Assembly (NCBI GenBank): GCA_963558795.1
Contig: CAUWIH010000001.1
Span: 3,546 to 67,545 of the forward strand
DNA length: 64,000 nt
Reading direction: 5' to 3'
Origin: an uncultured Megamonas sp.
Lineage (GTDB): Bacteria; Bacillota; Negativicutes; Selenomonadales; Selenomonadaceae
Below the pieces are notes generated by a model. That model was not told where the DNA came from and searched no databases. It saw nothing but the letters and a program-made list of their open reading frames with translations. Both the position numbers and the translations under genes were made by a program. This document shows, in pieces, positions 21,812-31,429 of the stretch (position 1 is the first letter of the stretch; each line of letters opens with the position of its first letter).

Positions 21812-22687
21812 TTAATAACAATTTTTATTACAATTACTACAGCCATTGCAGATAATTTTACTAGCACACATATAGCATTTTTGTTTATATTGTTTTTGAT
21901 AATATTTATCCTCAGATATGTTTCGACCAAAATTATCGTATAATTTAAAATTAATTTTTTCACCTTGATAATTCATACCAGATTTAAAAGCCATTTTACT
22001 TTGCAATTCTTTATGTGGTAAGTGATATATTTTTTTATCTTTCATAAATATTGTACCTGTTTCCATAAAACAAAATGTAATATTTTCTTGTACACAATCT
22101 GCACGTAATTTTTTTATCCAATCAAAATTACAAATTCTAGCACCATTATAGTTTTCGCCACCACAAATTACTTGTTGTATCTGTTTAGTTTGTAAGTATT
22201 TTAAGATATTTATTTCACTTAGTATAGGAGCACAAATAATCCCTTTATGTTTAAATGGTAAATCTAATAGTATCGGAATACGTTCATCTGCTCGTTGTTG
22301 ATTTTCACAAGTTACATGTAAAAAAACATTTTCCCAACCATCATGCCAATTATTTGGTAAACATTTATAAATACGTTCAGCTCGTTTAGTTATGAGGATA
22401 AAAATAACATCAGGTCTAGAATGAATGATTTGCCAAGCCTCTTCTCGCCAATTATCAGCCTTGTCTAAGAAAAAATCAGAAGTCATACATACACGAATAG
22501 ATTCACCACTTTTTATTTTGTATTCGCCATGACGATTTTTAGCCAAAGGATAATAAAAATTATTTTTTACTTTATAGATATAGGCACCACTATTACCACG
22601 AATTTTATCAAGATAATACATATAGCAGTTTTTACAGCCTTCACTATATTTTATACAACCATGCCATGGATTCCAAATATCATGCAT
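21812..22687 (-). CDS. DUF5131 / phage Gp37-Gp68-like radical-SAM-like protein with Cys-rich tail
   Basis: WNPWHGC..SEGCKNCY (Cx6CxxC), MTSDFF, LITKR, VICGGE; C-terminal CYMC..IICNGCSNCNKNC. Confidence 0.75.
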   Translation of the reverse strand: MHDIWNPWHGCIKYSEGCKNCYMYYLDKIRGNSGAYIYKVKNNFYYPLAKNRHGEYKIKSGESIRVCMTSDFFLDKADNWREEAWQIIHSRPDVIFILITKRAERIYKCLPNNWHDGWENVFLHVTCENQQRADERIPILLDLPFKHKGIICAPILSEINILKYLQTKQIQQVICGGENYNGARICNFDWIKKLRADCVQENITFCFMETGTIFMKDKKIYHLPHKELQSKMAFKSGMNYQGEKINFKLYDNFGRNISEDKYYQKQYKQKCYMCASKIICNGCSNCNKNCY

Positions 22688-22855: not shown

Positions 22856-23941
22856 GTGATAAATCTATTAGATAAAATAGAAGAAAAAATTTTAAATAAT
22901 CAACGTTTAACCAAAGAAGATGGATTGGCATTATTTGCGTCTAACGATCTTGCACGTATTGGTTATTTAGCTGATTTAGTACGTAAACGTATTAGTGGAG
23001 ATTATGTATATTATAATGTGAATTGTCATTTGAATTTGACGAATATTTGTACTGCACTTTGTGATTTTTGTGCTTTTGGTTGTGAAGCTACGGATAAAAA
23101 AGCTTACGCAATGACTATGGAGCAAATTTATAATAAAGTGGCTAATGCATGTAAAGACCCTAGCATGAGAAATTTGCATATTGTAAGTGGTCTACATCCA
23201 GATTGGCCATTTAGTTATTATGTAGATATTATAAAAATGCTAAAAAGAGAATTTCCGCATTTACATTTAAAAGGTTTTACAGGTGTAGAGATTACACATT
23301 TTGCTAAAATATCAGGAAAATCTATTCGTGAAGTGCTTACAGAGTTGAAAGAAGCAGGTATTGAGGCTATGCCTGGTGGTGGTGCAGAAATCTTAAACGA
23401 TAGAATTCGCCAAAAACTTTGTCCCAATAAAGCTACAGCAAAAGAATGGTTAGAAGTATCAAGAACTGCACATCAATTAGGTATAAAAACTAATGCGTCA
23501 ATGCTTTATGGTCATATTGAAACAATTGAAGAACGTGTCGACCATTTACTTACATTACGTGCTCTTCAAGATGAAACAGGCGGTATTCAGACATTCATTT
23601 GTTTCCCATTCCACCCAGCTAATACCAAATTAGGAAAAACAGTTGCACGTACAAATGTTTGGGATGATTTAAAAACAATGGCTATTTGTCGTTTAATGTT
23701 AGATAATATCCATAATATTAAGGCTTATTGGGTTATGCTTACTTTACCAATAGCACAATTGGCCTTGGGCTTTGGAGCTAATGATATTGATGGTACTATT
23801 AGCGAAGAAAAAATCATGCATGATGCAGGAGCAAATTCGCCAAAAGCAATGACTCAAGATAAATTAATAGATTTAATCAAACAAACAGGCAGAATTCCTG
23901 CTGAATGTGATTGTAATTTTAATATTATTAAAACTTATTAA
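22856..23941 (+). CDS. mqnE: Aminofutalosine synthase MqnE-like radical SAM enzyme, copy 1
   Basis: NLTNICTALCDFCAF (CxxxCxxC), MPGGGAEI, MLYGHIET, HPANT, NIKAYWVM, NDIDGT. Confidence 0.8.
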   Translation: MINLLDKIEEKILNNQRLTKEDGLALFASNDLARIGYLADLVRKRISGDYVYYNVNCHLNLTNICTALCDFCAFGCEATDKKAYAMTMEQIYNKVANACKDPSMRNLHIVSGLHPDWPFSYYVDIIKMLKREFPHLHLKGFTGVEITHFAKISGKSIREVLTELKEAGIEAMPGGGAEILNDRIRQKLCPNKATAKEWLEVSRTAHQLGIKTNASMLYGHIETIEERVDHLLTLRALQDETGGIQTFICFPFHPANTKLGKTVARTNVWDDLKTMAICRLMLDNIHNIKAYWVMLTLPIAQLALGFGANDIDGTISEEKIMHDAGANSPKAMTQDKLIDLIKQTGRIPAECDCNFNIIKTY

Positions 23942-23973
23942 TAGACTATTTTATTATTTTGGAGAAAAGTTTT

Positions 23974-25050
23974 ATGTTAATTGAACAACAAGCAATAAAT
24001 AAAGCTAAAAATGGCGAACGTCTTAATTTTGAAGAGGCACTATATTTATATGAAAATGCAAGTACTTTAGATTTAGCTACATGGGCGAGAACAGCAAAAG
24101 AACGTCATAGTGGTAAAGATGTTTTTTATAATATTAATCGTCATATCAATCTTTCTAATATTTGTACAGCAGATTGTCCATTGTGTGCATTTTCTTGTAA
24201 TGAAGGGGAAAGTCAAGGATTTGTATTGACTAAAGAAGATGTTGAACAAAAAATAAAAGATACTATTCAAGAAGTACAAGGGCTTACTGAAATTCATATT
24301 GTAAGTTCTTTACATCCAACAAATGATTTTAATTATTATGTAGAAATATTAGAGTCTATAAAAAAATTATTACCAAATGTGCATATTCAAGCATTTACTC
24401 CAGTAGAAATTGTGCATTTTAGTAAAATATCTGGATTGTCGATTAGTGAAGTATTGAAAAAACTACAAGAAGTAGGATTAGATTCGTTACCTGGTGGCGG
24501 TGCTGAAATTTTAGATGATAGCGTTCGTGCAAAAATTTGTCCTAATAAAGCCAATACTAAAGAATGGATTGAAGTAATTAAGACTGCTCACAAAATGGGT
24601 ATGAAAACTAATGCGTCGGAATTATATGGTCATGTTGAAAATATTAAGCAACGTTTAGCCCATTTATTTACGCTACGAGATATTCAAGATGAAACAGGAG
24701 GATTTCAAGCATTTATTTCATTTCCTTTTCACCCAGCGAATACAAAATTTCCTGATATAACGCCAGTAAGCTCTACTGAAAGTTTACGTTTTATTGCGAT
24801 TTCTCGTTTAGTTTTGGATAATTTTGCGCATATAAAAGCTTTTTGGATGATGCTTACTATGCCGATAGCTCAATTAGCCTTAGCTTTTGGTGCTGATGAT
24901 TTAGATGGAACAGTAGAAGAAGAGCAAATAATTCATGCTGCCGGAGCAAAAACTGGTCAAAAAATGACAATTACAAGGCTTGCCAAAATTATCAGCGAAA
25001 CAGGATATATTCCTGTACAGCGTGATTCTTTATATCATAAATTGAAATAA
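23974..25050 (+). CDS. mqnE: Aminofutalosine synthase MqnE-like radical SAM enzyme, copy 2
   Basis: NLSNICTADCPLCAF, LPGGGAEI, LYGHVE, HPANT, HIKAFWMM, DDLDGT. ATG at 23974 after GGAG. Confidence 0.75.
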   Translation: MLIEQQAINKAKNGERLNFEEALYLYENASTLDLATWARTAKERHSGKDVFYNINRHINLSNICTADCPLCAFSCNEGESQGFVLTKEDVEQKIKDTIQEVQGLTEIHIVSSLHPTNDFNYYVEILESIKKLLPNVHIQAFTPVEIVHFSKISGLSISEVLKKLQEVGLDSLPGGGAEILDDSVRAKICPNKANTKEWIEVIKTAHKMGMKTNASELYGHVENIKQRLAHLFTLRDIQDETGGFQAFISFPFHPANTKFPDITPVSSTESLRFIAISRLVLDNFAHIKAFWMMLTMPIAQLALAFGADDLDGTVEEEQIIHAAGAKTGQKMTITRLAKIISETGYIPVQRDSLYHKLK

Positions 25051-25091
25051 TAAATATAAAAAGTTAAATAAAATAAAATTTGAGGTGTAAA

Positions 25092-26123
25092 ATGAATAGA
25101 CTTTCTGATAAAGAAGCTATTGAACTTTTAAAATATGGCGATATTTTGACTTTAGGTCAAACAGCAAATGCAATTCGTCAAGAAAAACATCCAGGAAATA
25201 CTGTTACCTTTATTGTTGACCGTAATATAAATTATACGAATGTTTGCGTTAATGAATGTCGTTTTTGTGCATTTTTCCGTAGAGAAAATCATAAAGATGC
25301 ATATTTATTACCAATGGAAACTATTTTACAAAAAGTAAAAGAAACTAAAGAGGCAGGTGGTACTCAGATTATGCTCCAGGGTGGGTTACATCCATCATTG
25401 CCATTTAGTTACTATTTAGATATGATTAGCACTATAAAAAAAGAATTTCCAGAGATAGTGATACATTCGTTTTCGCCAGCTGAGATACTTCATTTTGCGA
25501 AGATTTCAGGTAAATCAATAAAAGATGTTTTATTAGATTTAAAATCAGCAGGACTTGCCTCACTTCCAGGTGGTGGAGCAGAAATTTTAGTTGACCGTGT
25601 ACGTAAAATCGTAAGTCCTAAAAAAATCATGACTGATGATTGGCTAAATGTTATGGATAATGCTCATTCCATTGGTATGGAAAGCACAGCAACTATGGTT
25701 TTAGGTCTAGGCGAAACAGTAGAAGAACGTATAGAGCATATGCGTCGTATCCGTGATTTACAAGATAAAACAGGTGGTTTTAGAGCATTTATTATGTGGA
25801 CATTTCAGCCAGGTAATACTGATTTAGGTGGCGAAAAATTTTCTTCATGGGAATATCTAAAAACTTTATCGGTAGCTCGTATGTATTTTGATAATGTAAG
25901 TCATATTCAAGGTTCTTGGGTAACACAAGGACAACAAATTGGACAAATTACTTTAGCTTTTGGTGCTGATGATTTGGGTAGTATTATGCTTGAAGAAAAT
26001 GTTGTACGTGCAGCAGGAACAGCTTATCAAATGTCTATCGATAAAATGGTAAATACTATAAATAAAGCTGGTTTTAAAGCAGCTCAACGTGATACAGAAT
26101 ACAATATTATTCGTCGTTTTTAA
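25092..26123 (+). CDS. mqnC: Cyclic dehypoxanthine futalosine synthase MqnC
   Basis: DRNINYTNVCVNECRFCAF, LQGGLHP, FIMWTFQ, HIQGSW, GSIMLEENV. ATG at 25092 after GAGGTG. Confidence 0.88.
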   Translation: MNRLSDKEAIELLKYGDILTLGQTANAIRQEKHPGNTVTFIVDRNINYTNVCVNECRFCAFFRRENHKDAYLLPMETILQKVKETKEAGGTQIMLQGGLHPSLPFSYYLDMISTIKKEFPEIVIHSFSPAEILHFAKISGKSIKDVLLDLKSAGLASLPGGGAEILVDRVRKIVSPKKIMTDDWLNVMDNAHSIGMESTATMVLGLGETVEERIEHMRRIRDLQDKTGGFRAFIMWTFQPGNTDLGGEKFSSWEYLKTLSVARMYFDNVSHIQGSWVTQGQQIGQITLAFGADDLGSIMLEENVVRAAGTAYQMSIDKMVNTINKAGFKAAQRDTEYNIIRRF

Positions 26124-26149
26124 ATAAATAAAAAATTAAGGAGTTTTTT

Positions 26150-26983
26150 ATGAATAAACAAATTATTCCACAAGCAGATTATGCAATTATTGGAGGCTCG
26201 GGGACTTTATCAAGTAATTTCCCTTTAGGTGCAAAATGTGATGATGTAAAAATTATTCAAGACCGTATGGTTTTTGATACACCTTATGGAAAAACTACAG
26301 AACTTCGTTTATTTGAAGTAGCTGGTATTCGCGTATTAACTTGTAAAATGCATGGTTGGCGTAGTGGTGTAAATCGTGCAGATGCATCTCGTCAATTATT
26401 TTGGACATTTCGTGAAGCAGGTGTAAAACGTATTTTCTCTGAAGGCGGAGTTGGTACAATTAATAAATTATTAGACCCAAGAGATTTTTTAATACCTGAT
26501 GATTATCTTGATATGTCTGTGCGAAAAGATGTAGGTCTTGAAGGTAAATATTTATTGGTTATGAGAGATGCACTTTGTCCGCAAATGCGTGAAGAATTAA
26601 TTAAGCAGACACGTAAACATTTTGATGGTAGAATTTTTACACGTGGAACTTATGCTAATACTGATGGTCGTCATTTTGAAAGCCCTGCAGAAATAGCTAT
26701 GCTTAATGGTCATGCAGATATTGTAGGTCAATCTATTTGTCCAGAAGTATATCTTGCTCGTGAAATTGGAGCTTGTTATGCGGGTCTTTATTATGTAGTA
26801 AATTATGGTGAAGGTATAAAAAAATGGTCACATCAAGTATTAGAAGATATCTTCTATGATGATGCTCCAATGATTAGTAAAATTTTATTAGACACTATTC
26901 GTTCTTTAGCTAAACAAGATAGAGAATGTGAATGTTTATCTTTACGCAAAGAAACTTTATTAAAAGGTATTTATGATGATTAA
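26150..26983 (+). CDS. MTAP/MTIP-fold nucleoside phosphorylase homologue with altered active site
   Basis: IIGGSG, PYG, HG, PDDYLD, FESPAE and PE..LAREIG.CYA identify the MTAP fold; several phosphate- and base-binding residues differ. Confidence 0.8.
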   Translation: MNKQIIPQADYAIIGGSGTLSSNFPLGAKCDDVKIIQDRMVFDTPYGKTTELRLFEVAGIRVLTCKMHGWRSGVNRADASRQLFWTFREAGVKRIFSEGGVGTINKLLDPRDFLIPDDYLDMSVRKDVGLEGKYLLVMRDALCPQMREELIKQTRKHFDGRIFTRGTYANTDGRHFESPAEIAMLNGHADIVGQSICPEVYLAREIGACYAGLYYVVNYGEGIKKWSHQVLEDIFYDDAPMISKILLDTIRSLAKQDRECECLSLRKETLLKGIYDD

Positions 26984-26995
26984 TAGATAAACTAG

Positions 26996-27046
26996 AAAAG
27001 CACATGAAAAGTTAAAATTATAATTAACTTTTCATGTGCTTTTTTT
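26996..27046 (+). terminator. Intrinsic terminator of the mqn operon
   Basis: AAAAGCACATGAAAAGTTAA...TTAACTTTTCATGTGCTTTT, 20-bp inverted repeat plus T run. Confidence 0.85.
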
Positions 27047-27149
27047 ATTAGTTATTTGTTTTAAATAGAAAATTTTAGCAAAGAAAATTTAAATAGTTTG
27101 CGATATTTTGTGATATAATAAAAATAATTTAAAAAATGGAGGAGAATTT

Positions 27150-29130: not shown

Positions 29131-29820
29131 TTATTTTTTACTTACAGGTTCAATATCTTCTTTAACCCATAATTCATTATGTTCTTTAGCAATGTGCATA
29201 GCTAAACGACCATTACCAAACATACAGATAAATTCTTTCCAGTTATAAATACCGAGAGGAATATGACCAAATACGACACAAAGAGTAAGACCAATACCTA
29301 CTACTAAATGAATCATATCAGCCCAATAAGCGATTTGTTTTGGTACAAGTGGTAATGCGATATATAAAATTAGACCAGTTACAACAATGATGATAGTACC
29401 AAAGAATACCATAACACCCATCATTTTTTGTCCAGAGTTCATTTTACGCATTGGAGGAACAGGGATTTTTTTCCCTAAAAACATTTTCTGTGGATAACCG
29501 CCACCCACTTTGAGCCAGTCAACATCGCGTTTGCTCCAATCAAAGATTTCACGCCAGAAAGCAGCAACACGTTTTGGTTGGAAGAAGAAAAACCAAACAC
29601 AAGAAAGTGTTAAAATCCATGCACCGATAATATGAATTTGCATCACAAGATGCATAAAAGAATCACCTAAAGGGTAACCGAAAGAATATAAGAACGGACG
29701 TAAGAATAATACAATTCCAGTAAATGCGGCAGGCAAGAAGCCTAGAACAAGACACCAGTGAAATAATCTAGTCGCTAAGGAGTGTTTTAATACAATAGCG
29801 TTATTATCAAAATCTTGCAT
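29131..29820 (-). CDS. Di-heme cytochrome b membrane anchor (FdnI/HyaC-like) of the hydrogenase
   Basis: Four TM helices with His in RLFHW, QIHI, MIHL and FGHI; KMNSGQK loop. Confidence 0.85.
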   Translation of the reverse strand: MQDFDNNAIVLKHSLATRLFHWCLVLGFLPAAFTGIVLFLRPFLYSFGYPLGDSFMHLVMQIHIIGAWILTLSCVWFFFFQPKRVAAFWREIFDWSKRDVDWLKVGGGYPQKMFLGKKIPVPPMRKMNSGQKMMGVMVFFGTIIIVVTGLILYIALPLVPKQIAYWADMIHLVVGIGLTLCVVFGHIPLGIYNWKEFICMFGNGRLAMHIAKEHNELWVKEDIEPVSKK

Positions 29821-29840
29821 GATTGCCTCCTTGTATACAA

Positions 29841-30146
29841 TTAAATTTTAGTACGATCAATATATTTTGTATGGAATAACTGTTCAGCTAGAGGACTAAG
29901 TGGTTCTTTAGCAAGTTTATCATACATAGCTAATAAGCTTTTATTATGATGACTTTGTCTGAAGGCTTGTTTTTCGTCATCTTGATATAATCCAGCAGCA
30001 CGCATTTTGATATATTTATTACGGTCTTGAACAATATCAGTAACACTATAAGCACCAGTCCAAAGTATAGCAGTCAAAATACCTGCCATACCTAAAAATT
30101 CGCGTCGGGAAACAGTTATTGCCTTTTCAATATAATCATATTTCAT
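29841..30146 (-). CDS. hydB: [FeFe] hydrogenase small subunit with twin-arginine signal/anchor
   Basis: SRREFL Tat motif plus hydrophobic stretch; R..GLY..D, SHHN..L..MY and LFHT.Y small-subunit motifs. Confidence 0.88.
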   Translation of the reverse strand: MKYDYIEKAITVSRREFLGMAGILTAILWTGAYSVTDIVQDRNKYIKMRAAGLYQDDEKQAFRQSHHNKSLLAMYDKLAKEPLSPLAEQLFHTKYIDRTKI

Positions 30147-30172
30147 GTCAATATATACTCACTTTCGTAAAA

Positions 30173-31429
30173 TTACCATGGTAAGATAGCTTTGAATTTG
30201 TCAATCCAAGAAGTACCCATAGGATTGATAGGCTGACCACCGCCATTTACGCAACCACCAGGGCAGTTCATAACTTCGATGAAATGATATGGAGAAGTAC
30301 CGTTTTCCACTTCAGCTAATAATGGTTCTACGTTTTTAGTACCATGAACAACTGCTACATTTAAAGTAATTTCTTTATCGCTATTAGCTAATTTGATAGG
30401 AACTTGAGCAGTTTTTACTTTTTCTAGTCCACGAACAGGAGTGTAATTGAGATTAGGTAATTCAGTGCCAGTTAATTCAAAATAAGCTGTACGTAAAGCT
30501 GCTTCCATAACCCCACCAGTAGTACCGAAAATTGTACCTGCACCTGTATATTCAGCTAAAGGATTGTCTTTTTCTTCAGATGGCGTTACATTGCGTAAAT
30601 CAATGTTTAATTTTTTTAGTAATCTAGCTAAGTCTCTAGTAGTGAGAACAATATCAGTATCTTGATATGTAGCTGTATGACCATGTTGTTTCCAGTAATC
30701 AGCAGCAGATGTAAATTCTGGGCGAGATGCTTCGAATTTTTTAGCTGTACAAGGATAAACACCAACACAATAAATATTTTCAGGTTCTGTATGCCAAACT
30801 TCAGTAGCACCGTAAATTTTTACAACAGGGCCTGTCATACCTTGTGGAGATTTTGCAGAAGATAAATGATTGATAAGATTTGGGTGATATAATTCAACAT
30901 AGCGAACCCAAGATGGACAACAAGATGTGAACTGTGGTAATGGGCCTAATTCATGATGAGAAGGTTCATTTAATAAATATTTTTTAATTTTAGCAATAAG
31001 TTCAGTACCTTCTTCTAAAATAGTGTTGTCAGCAGCAAAATTTACATCCATAATTTTAAATCCTGCTTGTTTTAAAGCACCATATAATTGTTCAGTAACT
31101 AAAGAGCCTGGTTCCATATTGAACTCTTCACCTAAAGCTACACGAACAGCAGGTGCAACTGTAGCAACCACAGTTAATTGTTTGTTTTGGAGCTTTTCGA
31201 TTACAACGTCCACCGGATCAAAAGTATCTTCAATAGCACCAAATGGGCAGTTTACAAGACATTGTCCGCATTGTAAACATTTTGTGTTGTTGATGTGATG
31301 CGTAGCACCATAGCTACCCTCGATAGCATTAGTAGGACAAAATGATTTACATGAATCGCAACCTTTACATATTGATGGGTTAATATGGATAAGTTCGTTC
31401 AATTCATTCTGTTGATAAGTATTATTCAC
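30173..31429 (-). CDS. hydA: [FeFe] hydrogenase large subunit (2x[4Fe-4S] plus H-cluster domain)
   Basis: CKGCDSCKSFCP and CLQCGQCLVNCP; H-cluster motifs FTSCCPSW, YPCTAKKFE, EVMNCPGGCVNGGGQP. GTG start after AAAGGAGG. Confidence 0.95.
   Translation of the reverse strand: MNNTYQQNELNELIHINPSICKGCDSCKSFCPTNAIEGSYGATHHINNTKCLQCGQCLVNCPFGAIEDTFDPVDVVIEKLQNKQLTVVATVAPAVRVALGEEFNMEPGSLVTEQLYGALKQAGFKIMDVNFAADNTILEEGTELIAKIKKYLLNEPSHHELGPLPQFTSCCPSWVRYVELYHPNLINHLSSAKSPQGMTGPVVKIYGATEVWHTEPENIYCVGVYPCTAKKFEASRPEFTSAADYWKQHGHTATYQDTDIVLTTRDLARLLKKLNIDLRNVTPSEEKDNPLAEYTGAGTIFGTTGGVMEAALRTAYFELTGTELPNLNYTPVRGLEKVKTAQVPIKLANSDKEITLNVAVVHGTKNVEPLLAEVENGTSPYHFIEVMNCPGGCVNGGGQPINPMGTSWIDKFKAILPW

What the first reader, a model, noticed from the sequence alone, without database searches (positions are those of the whole stretch)
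26150..26983. MTAP-fold enzyme with a remodelled active site closing the mqnE-mqnE-mqnC operon: candidate non-orthologous MqnB
The step between MqnE and MqnC needs removal of the purine (MqnB or MTAN hydrolase), and no such gene is in this operon. Instead the last gene before the terminator is an MTAP homologue. By eye against human MTAP: the phosphate-binding RH is MH (Arg60 lost), TTACG is EGGVG (Thr93 lost, new Glu), NMT is GQS, and the base-specifying TDYD is VNYG. Asn at that position, as in MTIP/PNP, favours 6-oxopurines such as the hypoxanthine of futalosine. Loss of phosphate ligands plus a new Glu suggests conversion to a hydrolase, which would be an undescribed variant of the futalosine pathway (inference). 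Alternatively it recycles the 5'-deoxyadenosine made by the radical SAM enzymes.
Basis: partly seen in the sequence, partly recalled or inferred. Interest (0 to 1): 0.75.

Follow-up and report, generated by a model that had tools for sequence, protein, structure and literature searches.

The report
MTAP-like futalosine-cleaving enzyme candidate (mqnZ)
The last gene of a vitamin-K2 (menaquinone) operon in a Megamonas gut bacterium encodes a nucleoside-cleaving enzyme of the MTAP family whose phosphate pocket has been rebuilt; it most likely removes the purine from the pathway intermediate futalosine, a step for which these bacteria have no known gene, but the gene had already been noticed in 2016 and given a different job.

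Summary
ORF 26150-26983 (+, 277 aa) is a real, transcribed, high-confidence MTAP-fold protein.

The gene is not undescribed. Ravcheev & Thiele 2016 (PMC4746308) named it mqnZ in Megamonas, Mitsuokella and Selenomonas and proposed that it replaces MqnD. Their own table shows these genomes also lack mqnB and mtnN.

- The purine and ribose ligands are strictly conserved.
- Both hypoxanthine determinants of PNP and MTIP (Glu, Asn) are present.
- In two other lineages the homologue is followed directly by an aminofutalosine-deaminase-family amidohydrolase, once inside an eight-gene mqn cluster.
- More distant relatives sit beside adenosine deaminases.
- MqnC lies directly upstream in 47 of 80 genome loci. 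Six genomes in which the genes are unlinked still carry mqnC.

The predicted substrate is futalosine rather than aminofutalosine. Loss of Arg60 and Thr93, with a gained acidic residue that covaries family-wide, suggests hydrolysis, but this is untested.

Open points are the missing deaminase in Megamonas and a still-orphan MqnD step. Salvage of 5'-deoxy-nucleosides remains a live rival. No biochemistry exists.

The parts
22856..23941 (+). mqnE paralogue 'E1' (aminofutalosine synthase type radical SAM), first gene of the operon
   Evidence: NCBIfam TIGR03700 scores 481.3 bits against a cut-off of 434.55. It is 49% identical to E2. This paralogue is present in Selenomonadaceae operons and absent from Sporomusaceae-type operons.
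23959..25050 (+). mqnE paralogue 'E2', the type that is conserved next to mqnA/mqnC in other Negativicutes
   Evidence: TIGR03700 scores 435.7 bits, just above the cut-off. It is the best match of the single MqnE in the E-A-C-Z operons of Pelosinus, Propionispira and Dendrosporobacter, at 60-65% identity.
25080..26123 (+). mqnC (cyclic dehypoxanthinyl futalosine synthase)
   Evidence: TIGR03699 scores 499.3 bits against a cut-off of 428.1. It lies directly upstream of the MTAP-like gene in 47 of 80 genome loci.
26138..26143 (+). Shine-Dalgarno AAGGAG of the MTAP-like gene
   Evidence: Read directly from the sequence. It sits 6 nt before the ATG at 26150.
26150..26983 (+). MTAP-fold gene ('mqnZ' of Ravcheev & Thiele 2016), 277 aa; candidate futalosine N-ribosyl-cleaving enzyme
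   Evidence: Orthologues are 66-96% identical across Selenomonadales and Sporomusaceae.
26348..26353 (+). Met67-His68, in place of the phosphate-binding Arg60-His61 of human MTAP
   Evidence: Alignment. The codons were checked.
26441..26449 (+). Glu98-Gly99-Gly100, in place of Thr92-Thr93-Ala94 (phosphate loop); the acidic residue covaries with loss of Arg60
26675..26680 (+). Phe176-Glu177, equivalent to PNP Phe200-Glu201 and the L-E of MTIP; hypoxanthine N1-H ligand (MTAP has Phe-Ser)
   Evidence: Glu177 is at least 90% conserved in alignment A1.
26729..26734 (+). Gln194-Ser195, in place of Met196-Thr197
26801..26803 (+). Asn218, equivalent to PNP Asn243 and the MTIP Asn (MTAP has Asp220); 6-oxopurine determinant
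26996..27050 (+). Intrinsic terminator (20-bp stem, 8-nt loop, T run) closing the operon
   Evidence: RNA contig depth falls here.

Best explanation
The gene encodes a trimeric-type NP-I (MTAP/MTIP/PNP fold) enzyme that cleaves the N-ribosidic bond of futalosine. It releases hypoxanthine and gives dehypoxanthinyl futalosine, the substrate of MqnC, which is encoded immediately upstream. In Megamonas and other Selenomonadales and Sporomusaceae it therefore fills the MqnB/MTAN step of the futalosine route to menaquinone. These genomes have neither mqnB nor mtnN.

Shown:
- It has the MTAP fold.
- It is co-transcribed with mqnE'-mqnC.
- Its ribose and purine ligands are conserved.
- It carries the Glu/Asn pair that specifies hypoxanthine in PNP and MTIP.
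- It has lost two phosphate ligands (Arg60, Thr93) and the Met under the ribose.
- It has gained an acidic residue in the phosphate loop.

Inferred:
- The substrate is futalosine, so aminofutalosine must first be deaminated by an enzyme encoded elsewhere.
- The nucleophile is water rather than phosphate. This would give MqnC its free-hemiacetal substrate directly.
- The clade-specific Trp70-Arg71, His228 and the C-terminal Arg266-Lys267 tail may line the pocket for the carboxybenzoyl-ethyl group at the 5' position.
For: (1) Anatomy. The gene is last in the operon, with 26-nt spacing, a strong RBS and a terminator. One metatranscriptome contig spans 24440-26870, and two further runs bridge the mqnC/Z junction.

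(2) Linkage.
- MqnC is directly upstream in 47 of 80 genome loci, in three different gene orders: E1-E2-C-Z, E2-mqnA-C-Z and E2-C-Z.
- A 50%-identical homologue (P0122) lies in a cluster UbiD-UbiA-UbiX-MqnE-MqnA-MqnC-Z-amidohydrolase.

(3) Six Selenomonadales genomes whose Z is unlinked still carry mqnC on another contig.

(4) Phyletic pattern from the literature.
- Megamonas hypermegale and Mitsuokella multacida have mqnA, mqnE, mqnC, mqnL, mqnP (and mqnM in Megamonas only) but mqnB 0, mtnN 0 and mqnD 0.
- Negativicutes without the Mqn pathway (Veillonella, Phascolarctobacterium, Acidaminococcus) have mqnZ 0 (PMC4746308 Table S1).

(5) Base pocket. Glu177 and Asn218 are at least 90% conserved. 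They align with PNP Glu201/Asn243 and with the Glu/Asn of P. aeruginosa MTIP, which was crystallised with hypoxanthine.

(6) Deaminase pairing.
- P0122 and P0123 are each followed within 4 nt by a cog0402-type amidohydrolase. Its best NCBIfam hits include the aminofutalosine deaminase family.
- P0126 and P0129 sit beside adenosine deaminase.

(7) Phosphate site. In 92 family members, 32 of 45 sequences without Arg60 have Glu or Asp at position 92, against 2 of 47 with Arg60. Gln or His replaces Met196 in 33 of 45 against 3 of 47.

(8) No MqnB, MtnN or MqnD homologue is in the window or in any Negativicutes Z locus flank.
Against: - There are no biochemical data for any member.
- No deaminase is seen in the Megamonas operon, in the 64-kb window or in any Negativicutes Z locus. 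Ravcheev's table gives mqnX 0. A strictly 6-oxopurine-specific enzyme would therefore lack a known source of futalosine.
- 27 of 80 genome loci have Z away from mqn genes.
- The close homologues P0121 and P0124 (49-52% identity) have no mqn gene within 8 kb.
- If Z does the MqnB step, the MqnD step stays without a gene, so the pathway is still incomplete.
- Whole-genome absence of mqnB, mtnN and mqnD rests on a 2016 table for two genomes. I could not re-test it.
- The covariation count is not corrected for phylogeny.
Confidence: 0.6

Rival explanations
1. By-product disposal. The enzyme cleaves 5'-deoxyinosine or 5'-deoxyadenosine (or methylthioinosine), formed from the 5'-deoxyadenosine released by MqnC and other radical SAM enzymes. 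This would be as in the archaeal DadD plus MTIP-type route. It sits by mqnC only because MqnC is a producer.
For: - MqnC releases 5'-dAdo (established enzymology).
- Megamonas lacks mtnN according to PMC4746308 Table S1.
- The wider Arg60-less family occurs beside adenosine deaminases and nucleoside-type transporters without mqn genes.
- The amidohydrolases next to P0122 and P0123 also score on 5'-deoxyadenosine and MTA deaminase models.
- One third of the Selenomonadales loci are unlinked to mqn genes.
Against: - Every anaerobe with radical SAM enzymes needs this function. Yet the gene is reported only in genomes with Mqn genes and is absent from Veillonella, Acidaminococcus and Phascolarctobacterium.
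- The unlinked cases I could assess all retain mqnC.
- C-Z adjacency is conserved through three operon rearrangements and recurs inside an 8-gene mqn cluster in another lineage.
- Salvage enzymes normally keep phosphorolysis to save the ribose as ribose-1-phosphate, whereas here the phosphate site is dismantled.
Confidence: 0.2
2. MqnD replacement (Ravcheev & Thiele 2016). The protein converts cyclic dehypoxanthinyl futalosine into 1,4-dihydroxy-6-naphthoate.
For: - mqnD is absent from the genomes that have this gene, and the gene occurs only with other mqn genes (PMC4746308).
- I found no MqnD homologue near any Negativicutes locus, whereas true MqnD lies beside MqnC in a Peptococcaceae locus and a Chloroflexota locus.
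- It is the only uncharacterised gene conserved in these operons.
Against: - The MqnD substrate has no purine. Yet the purine-binding Glu177 and Asn218 and the ribose-stacking Phe176 are the most conserved residues of the family.
- The same genomes also lack mqnB and mtnN, and that step matches the chemistry of the fold.
- Coupling to deaminases that act on the adenine ring makes sense only if the base is still attached.
- The original authors themselves noted that sequence analysis gave no support.
Confidence: 0.07
3. An ordinary inosine/guanosine phosphorylase or hydrolase of purine salvage that happens to be linked to mqn genes in one lineage.
For: - It has the Glu/Asn 6-oxopurine signature, and His228 aligns with PNP His257, the 5'-OH ligand.
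- Relatives lie beside adenosine deaminase.
Against: - Its best NCBIfam PNP model score is 56.8 bits against a cut-off of 302.6.
- The phosphate site is dismantled.
- Linkage to mqnC is conserved in many genera and in an unrelated mqn cluster.
- The phyletic pattern follows the Mqn pathway.
Confidence: 0.06
4. A re-ordered pathway. The enzyme acts after MqnC on a cyclised nucleoside (cyclic futalosine). Its product is channelled in a way that makes MqnD unnecessary, so that one protein covers both missing steps.
For: - Both the nucleosidase step and the MqnD step lack genes in these genomes.
- The gene always follows mqnC rather than mqnE.
Against: No evidence shows that MqnC accepts a nucleoside, and nothing in the sequence suggests a second activity. 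This is pure speculation.
Confidence: 0.04

Closest known systems
'MqnZ' as predicted by Ravcheev & Thiele, Front Microbiol 2016 (PMC4746308)
   Same: It is the same gene family: a PF01048 protein clustered with mqnC and mqnE in Megamonas hypermegale (MHY_27640), Mitsuokella and Selenomonas, and with mqnEAC in Thermosinus, Pelotomaculum, Syntrophomonas and Syntrophothermus. The window comes from a Megamonas genome (96% and 92% identity to Megamonas loci).
   Different: They assigned it the MqnD reaction on phyletic grounds alone. The residue-level and deaminase-context evidence here points to the nucleosidase (MqnB-type) step instead. Neither assignment has been tested experimentally.
Futalosine hydrolase MqnB (EC 3.2.2.26) and aminofutalosine nucleosidase MTAN/MtnN (EC 3.2.2.30)
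   Same: The proposed reaction and pathway position are the same. The Pfam family (PF01048, NP-I fold) is the same. MqnB also acts on the hypoxanthine form, downstream of a deaminase.
   Different: It is not orthologous. MqnB and MtnN sequences from D. piger, Alistipes and C. coli give no tblastn hit to the window, and no MqnB or MTAN model appears among its NCBIfam hits. Its nearest relatives belong to the MTAP/MTIP/PNP branch, not the MTAN branch.
5'-Methylthioinosine phosphorylase (P. aeruginosa PA3004, PDB 3OZB)
   Same: The fold matches (Foldseek TM 0.73-0.85). It shares the Glu and Asn hypoxanthine pair and accepts a 5'-modified inosine.
   Different: MTIP keeps Arg-His, Asn93 and Met-Thr and is a phosphorylase. 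The window protein has Met-His, Gly99 and Gln-Ser, plus a new Glu98. Its score on the NCBIfam MTIP model is 82.6 bits against a cut-off of 223.
Human and archaeal MTAP (1CB0, 3T94, 1WTA)
   Same: These are the best sequence and structure matches. A C-terminal Cys-x-Cys motif is shared with archaeal MTAPs.
   Different: Identity is 22-27%. The adenine-specifying Ser178, Asp220 and Asp222 are replaced by Glu, Asn and Gly. Phosphate ligands Arg60 and Thr93 are lost. His137 of the 5'-methylthio pocket is Leu.
Human purine nucleoside phosphorylase (1PF7)
   Same: The equivalents of Glu201, Asn243, Ser220 and His257 are all present.
   Different: Sequence relation is much weaker (E 1e-4). The equivalents of the phosphate ligands Arg84 and Asn115 are lost.

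Membership tests
Pfam PF01048 PNP_UDP_1 (NP-I nucleoside phosphorylase/hydrolase superfamily) | Profile match above the gathering score | tested here: met
   87.9 bits against a cut-off of 25.1, covering residues 12-250.
Trimeric-type MTAP/PNP fold | Three-dimensional fold superposes on solved MTAP, MTIP and PNP | tested here: met
   AF2 pLDDT 93.7. Foldseek E 1e-20 to 1e-22, TM 0.73-0.85 to 3T94, 4GLF, 1WTA, 1CB0, 3OZB and 1I80. The oligomeric state was not tested.
S-methyl-5'-thioadenosine phosphorylase (MTAP, TIGR01694 equivalog) | Score above the curated equivalog cut-off | tested here: not met
   110.9 bits against a cut-off of 274.85. The other MTAP models also score far below their cut-offs.
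S-methyl-5'-thioadenosine phosphorylase (MTAP) | Adenine-specifying Ser178, Asp220 and Asp222 (human numbering) | tested here: not met
   Glu177, Asn218 and Gly220 in the window protein.
Phosphorylases of the MTAP/PNP branch | Complete phosphate site (Thr/Ser18, Arg60, His61, Thr/Asn93, Ala94 amide, Thr/Ser197) | tested here: not met
   Ser17, His68 and Ser195 are kept. Arg60 is Met67 and Thr93 is Gly99. An acidic Glu98 is gained. Whether phosphate is still used cannot be tested with these tools.
S-methyl-5'-thioinosine phosphorylase (MTIP, NF006599) | Score above the cut-off, and the Glu/Asn hypoxanthine pair | tested here: inconclusive
   The Glu/Asn pair is present, but the score is 82.6 bits against a cut-off of 223.
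Futalosine hydrolase MqnB / MTAN (MtnN) | Sequence homology to characterised or annotated MqnB or MtnN | tested here: not met
   No tblastn hit of D. piger or Alistipes MqnB, or of C. coli MtnN, to the window or to Negativicutes loci at E<=1e-4. No such NCBIfam hit.
Futalosine hydrolase (functional class, EC 3.2.2.26) | Releases hypoxanthine from futalosine to give DHFL | not testable with these tools
   Needs an enzyme assay.
'mqnZ' (Ravcheev & Thiele 2016) | PF01048 protein clustered with mqnC and mqnE in Selenomonadales genomes that lack mqnD | tested here: met
   The operon is in the window. Identity to Megamonas loci is 92-96%. Absence of mqnD in the whole genome was not re-tested and is taken from PMC4746308.
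1,4-dihydroxy-6-naphthoate synthase MqnD (PF02621) | VitK2_biosynth fold or homology | tested here: not met
   No PF02621 hit. MqnD queries do not hit this gene.

The most novel reading that the evidence does not exclude
The window protein belongs to a large, uncharacterised branch of the MTAP family. In this branch the phosphate-binding Arg was lost, an acidic residue was gained in the phosphate loop, and Met196 became Gln or His. This would be a phosphorylase-to-hydrolase conversion inside the trimeric PNP/MTAP lineage, specialised for 5'-substituted inosines made by partner deaminases. In Negativicutes this hydrolase would define a third, non-orthologous solution for the purine-removal step of the futalosine pathway, after MqnB and MTAN. 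That pathway would also run without MqnD, implying a further unknown enzyme or a re-ordered route. The extra MqnE paralogue E1 of Selenomonadaceae is a candidate for that unknown enzyme.
Probability: 0.3. Interest if true: 0.75.

Novelty: new variant of a known kind. Interest (0 to 1): 0.55.

Why it matters
- The futalosine pathway is a drug target and a marker of quinone metabolism. In Selenomonadales two of its steps have no assigned gene. This order includes abundant gut, rumen and oral bacteria such as Megamonas, Selenomonas, Anaerovibrio and Mitsuokella, and the beer-spoiler Pectinatus.
- The only published assignment for this gene (MqnD) is probably wrong. Correcting it would fix metabolic reconstructions of vitamin K2 production by gut and rumen microbiota.
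- Enzymologically, it would be a natural case in which the MTAP/PNP scaffold abandoned phosphate, and it would give a function to a broad unannotated sub-family.
- It also sharpens the remaining hole. If Z is the nucleosidase, an MqnD-independent route to 1,4-dihydroxy-6-naphthoate must exist in these organisms.

Tried and rejected
1. Literature searches for a characterised MTAP-type futalosine enzyme (futalosine + phosphorylase + MqnB; aminofutalosine + MTAP; mqnZ; futalosine + Negativicutes genera) found only Ravcheev & Thiele 2016. The 2017 paper listed for 'mqnZ' has no such term in its main text.

I then designed a Negativicutes-specific degenerate DNA pattern that matched 54 of 54 held MqnC genes and 0 of 74 others. 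The collection scan was again truncated and also picked up Acidobacteriaceae. It therefore gave six positive co-occurrence cases but no usable negatives.

3. Contexts of distant family members were mixed. P0121, P0124, P0137 and P0139 have no informative neighbours. P0132 is on too short a contig.

4. A search for a deaminase in the window and in all Negativicutes loci, using the two amidohydrolases as queries, found nothing.

5. The PF02621 gene in Sporomusaceae operons (c2) might have been MqnD. It is MqnA-like: it sits upstream of MqnC as in many phyla, and is only 26-31% identical to MqnD queries.

6. I could not inspect the model's coordinates. Whether Glu98 actually points into the phosphate site and how large the 5' pocket is remain unknown.

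7. Whole-genome presence or absence of mqnB, mtnN, mqnD and mqnX in Megamonas could not be recomputed, because only flanks of about 10 kb are retrievable.
Full report
**What is there.** The window is from a Megamonas genome. The protein of ORF 26150-26983 is 96% identical to that of an uncultured Megamonas MAG and 92% identical to that of M. hypermegale. Four genes form a tight unit on the + strand:
- an MqnE-type radical SAM gene (E1, 22856-23941)
- a second MqnE-type gene (E2, 23959-25050; 49% identical to E1)
- mqnC (25080-26123)
- the 277-aa ORF

The gaps are 17, 29 and 26 nt. The last ORF has an AAGGAG ribosome-binding site 6 nt before its ATG. It is followed after 13 nt by a 20-bp hairpin with a T run.

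In a gut metatranscriptome run, one assembled contig covers 24440-26870, that is E2 through mqnC into the ORF. Depth drops from 26.7 to 5.4 and then 2.7 past the end of that contig. Two other RNA runs have contigs that bridge the mqnC/ORF junction. These are assembled contigs, so DNA carry-over cannot be excluded.

**Family and fold.** The ORF is a PF01048 protein (87.9 bits). Its best NCBIfam hits are MTAP models, but at 110.9 bits against a cut-off of 274.85. The MTIP and PNP models score lower still. The closest solved structures by sequence are archaeal and human MTAP (E 1e-22 to 1e-18). An AlphaFold2 model built on a 42-sequence alignment has mean pLDDT 93.7 and pTM 0.92. It superposes on MTAP, MTIP and M. 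tuberculosis PNP with TM 0.7-0.85. 'MTAP-fold enzyme' is therefore correct.

| Human MTAP | Window protein |
|---|---|
| Arg60-His61 | Met67-His68 |
| Thr92-Thr93-Ala94 | Glu98-Gly99-Gly100 |
| Asn195-Met196-Thr197 | Gly193-Gln194-Ser195 |
| Thr219-Asp220-Tyr221-Asp222 | Val217-Asn218-Tyr219-Gly220 |

- Ser178 of MTAP is Glu177 here. The protein therefore carries both residues that specify 6-oxopurines in PNP, Glu201 and Asn243. The same pair is present in P. aeruginosa MTIP, which was crystallised with hypoxanthine. MTIP keeps Arg-His, Asn93 and Met-Thr.
- The phosphate-site changes are a family trait, not a peculiarity of this protein. Among 92 aligned relatives, 32 of 45 without Arg60 have Glu or Asp at position 92, against 2 of 47 with Arg60 (Fisher p = 5e-12, not corrected for phylogeny). 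Gln or His replaces Met196 in 33 of 45 against 3 of 47.

Glu177 and Asn218 are among the most conserved residues in the family alignment: each is conserved in at least 90% of sequences. The enzyme therefore still binds a purine nucleoside, most likely a hypoxanthine nucleoside. It has dismantled half of its phosphate site and gained a carboxylate there.

**Prior description.** Ravcheev & Thiele (Front Microbiol 2016, PMC4746308) reported a PF01048 gene clustered with mqnC and mqnE in Megamonas hypermegale (MHY_27640), Mitsuokella multacida and six Selenomonas strains. They also found it with mqnEAC in Thermosinus, Pelotomaculum, Syntrophomonas and Syntrophothermus. They named it mqnZ and proposed that it replaces MqnD, because it was found only with other mqn genes and never with mqnD. 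They conceded that sequence analysis gave no support.

Their Table S1 gives, for both Megamonas and Mitsuokella, mqnA 1, mqnE 1, mqnC 1, mqnD 0, mqnZ 1, mqnX 0, mqnB 0 and mtnN 0. The pathway is still labelled incomplete. Two steps therefore lack a gene in these genomes: purine removal and MqnD. No later paper in the library deals with this gene.

**Context across genomes.** I examined 80 genome loci encoding orthologues (66-96% identity; Selenomonadaceae and Sporomusaceae).
- 47 have MqnC directly upstream.
- 27 have no radical SAM gene upstream although the sequence is present.
- 6 are at contig ends.

The linked loci come in three arrangements:
- E1-E2-C-Z in Megamonas, Pectinatus, Anaerovibrio and Mitsuokella
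- E2-mqnA-C-Z in Propionispira, Pelosinus and Dendrosporobacter
- E2-C-Z in Selenomonas and Centipeda

The constant feature is C-Z. For six genomes of the unlinked type I found MqnC on another contig: CAMUZU01, JAFRSO01, CAMUZG01, JAILRS01, CAMJAZ01 and JAFYNH01. The scans were truncated, so negatives cannot be assessed.

In Ravcheev's table, Negativicutes that use the Men pathway or no quinone have no mqnZ. These are Veillonella, Phascolarctobacterium and Acidaminococcus. No MqnB, MtnN or MqnD homologue is found in the window or in any Negativicutes locus flank. True MqnD lies beside MqnC in a Peptococcaceae locus and a Chloroflexota locus.

**Context of more distant relatives.** An exhaustive search of 1.8 billion cluster representatives gave 33 representatives at E < 1e-30.
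- P0122 (50% identity) lies in a metagenomic cluster TetR-UbiD-UbiA-UbiX-MqnE (504 bits)-PF02621-MqnC (464 bits)-Z-amidohydrolase. The amidohydrolase start overlaps the Z stop by 4 nt. Its best NCBIfam hits are TRZ/ATZ hydrolase (156 bits) and the aminofutalosine deaminase family (142 bits), both below cut-off.
- P0123 (47% identity) is likewise followed after 4 nt by a truncated amidohydrolase of the same kind. That protein is 32% identical to a deaminase next to mqnC in a Frankiaceae genome.
- P0126 and P0129 (41-44% identity) lie beside bona fide adenosine deaminases, above the TIGR01430 cut-off. For P0126 there is also a QueT-type ECF transporter.
- P0128 (39% identity) lies next to a UbiE/MenG-type quinone methyltransferase.
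- P0121, P0124, P0137 and P0139 have uninformative neighbours.

The recurring partner is an enzyme that converts an adenine nucleoside into a hypoxanthine nucleoside. That is what the Glu/Asn pocket predicts.

**Interpretation.** The simplest reading is the Streptomyces/Thermus form of the pathway:
1. MqnE makes aminofutalosine.
2. A deaminase makes futalosine.
3. A nucleosidase releases hypoxanthine to give DHFL.
4. MqnC cyclises DHFL.

In this reading the MTAP-like protein takes the place of MqnB. The MqnD assignment is disfavoured because the MqnD substrate has no base, while base ligands are the best-conserved part of the protein. It is also disfavoured because deaminase coupling makes sense only with the base still attached.

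Hydrolysis rather than phosphorolysis is an inference. It rests on the loss of Arg60 and Thr93 and the gain of a covarying acidic residue. This is analogous to how MTAN differs from PNP, which I state from general knowledge of those families. It also rests on the fact that MqnC uses the free hemiacetal, so a 1-phosphate product would need a further phosphatase. I give the hydrolase sub-claim about 0.6 if the main reading is right.

**Weak points.**
- No deaminase is found in the Megamonas operon, in the window or in any Negativicutes locus, and mqnX is 0 in the 2016 table. Either a housekeeping deaminase elsewhere supplies futalosine, or the enzyme accepts aminofutalosine despite its pocket.
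- One third of orthologous loci are unlinked, and two close homologues have no mqn neighbours.
- The wider family clearly also works outside menaquinone synthesis.
- Disposal of 5'-deoxyinosine or 5'-deoxyadenosine from radical SAM chemistry remains a serious rival (about 0.2). It is weakened mainly by the pathway-restricted phyletic pattern and the persistence of C-Z adjacency.
- If Z is the nucleosidase, the MqnD step remains orphan.

**Verdict.**
The MqnB-type role and the 6-oxopurine specificity are supported. The hydrolase claim is untested. The novelty claim is overstated, because the gene was already published as mqnZ.
- I rate it a new variant of a known kind: a non-orthologous nucleosidase candidate of the MTAP branch for the futalosine pathway.
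- It is of moderate interest. It corrects a published assignment and exposes a further pathway hole.

Noticed in passing
window 22856-25050; loci L001, L005, L013, L035, L049, L091 versus L007, L018, L034, L036: There are two MqnE-type radical SAM genes in tandem, E1 and E2, 49% identical. Both are at or above the MqnE equivalog cut-off. Sporomusaceae-type operons carry only the E2 type, next to mqnA. E1 is an extra paralogue of Selenomonadaceae, sometimes displaced (after Z in L013, 2 kb upstream in L035). Its role is unknown. It is a candidate for the missing MqnD-type step or for a second substrate.
   Followed up: partly
window 29131-31429 (- strand): A three-gene unit lies 2 kb downstream of the mqn operon. 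It comprises an [FeFe]-hydrogenase large subunit with two 4Fe-4S motifs (30173-31429), an iron-hydrogenase small subunit with a twin-arginine-like leader (29841-30146) and a cytochrome b561 / Ni_hydr_CYTB membrane protein (29131-29820). This looks like a periplasmic, quinone-reducing [FeFe] hydrogenase, a plausible user of the menaquinone made next door.
   Followed up: partly
Megamonas and Mitsuokella genomes (PMC4746308 Table S1); all Negativicutes loci L001-L080: The MqnD step has no gene in these genomes. The only PF02621 gene seen in the Negativicutes operons is MqnA-like. If the MTAP-like protein is the nucleosidase, an MqnD-independent conversion of cyclic DHFL must exist.
   Followed up: partly
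L082-L084 (P0126), L167 (P0129): Arg60-less MTAP-family relatives lie next to adenosine deaminase. In L082 the order is QueT-type ECF S-component, Z-like gene, ECF ATPase, EcfT, adenosine deaminase, GntR, Dak1 and Dak2. This looks like an uptake-and-breakdown module for an unknown adenine nucleoside.
   Followed up: partly
L172 4669-6144 (P0121): A 491-aa gene call fuses an RNase H domain to a full Z-like domain (52% identical). It may be a real fusion or a merged gene call. No mqn genes are nearby.
   Followed up: no
L171 1029-2790 (P0128): A divergent Z-like protein has Asp instead of Asn at the base position and Leu-Gly instead of Gln-Ser. It overlaps an upstream 343-aa gene with no NCBIfam family hit. 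It is followed by a UbiE/MenG-type methyltransferase that scores 313.8 bits on the methyl-plastoquinone MpqE model, against a cut-off of 335.
   Followed up: no
window 21812-22687 (- strand): A DUF5131 protein (136 bits) with many Cys-rich motifs is transcribed divergently from the mqn operon. It shows a weak hit to 'radical SAM mobile pair protein A'. No link to the operon is seen in other genomes.
   Followed up: no
L174-L293 (pattern scan): MqnC of Acidobacteriaceae (Terracidiphilus, Granulicella, Edaphobacter) shares the 30-residue C-terminal motif that otherwise separated the Negativicutes MqnC sequences held from the 74 other MqnC sequences held. None of these loci has a Z, MqnB or MqnD gene within 8 kb.
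   Followed up: no
window 26927-26935 and homologues: The C-terminal Cys260-x-Cys262 motif is at least 90% conserved across the family. It is shared with archaeal MTAPs. In a mesophilic anaerobe its role (metal site or disulfide) is unclear.
   Followed up: no
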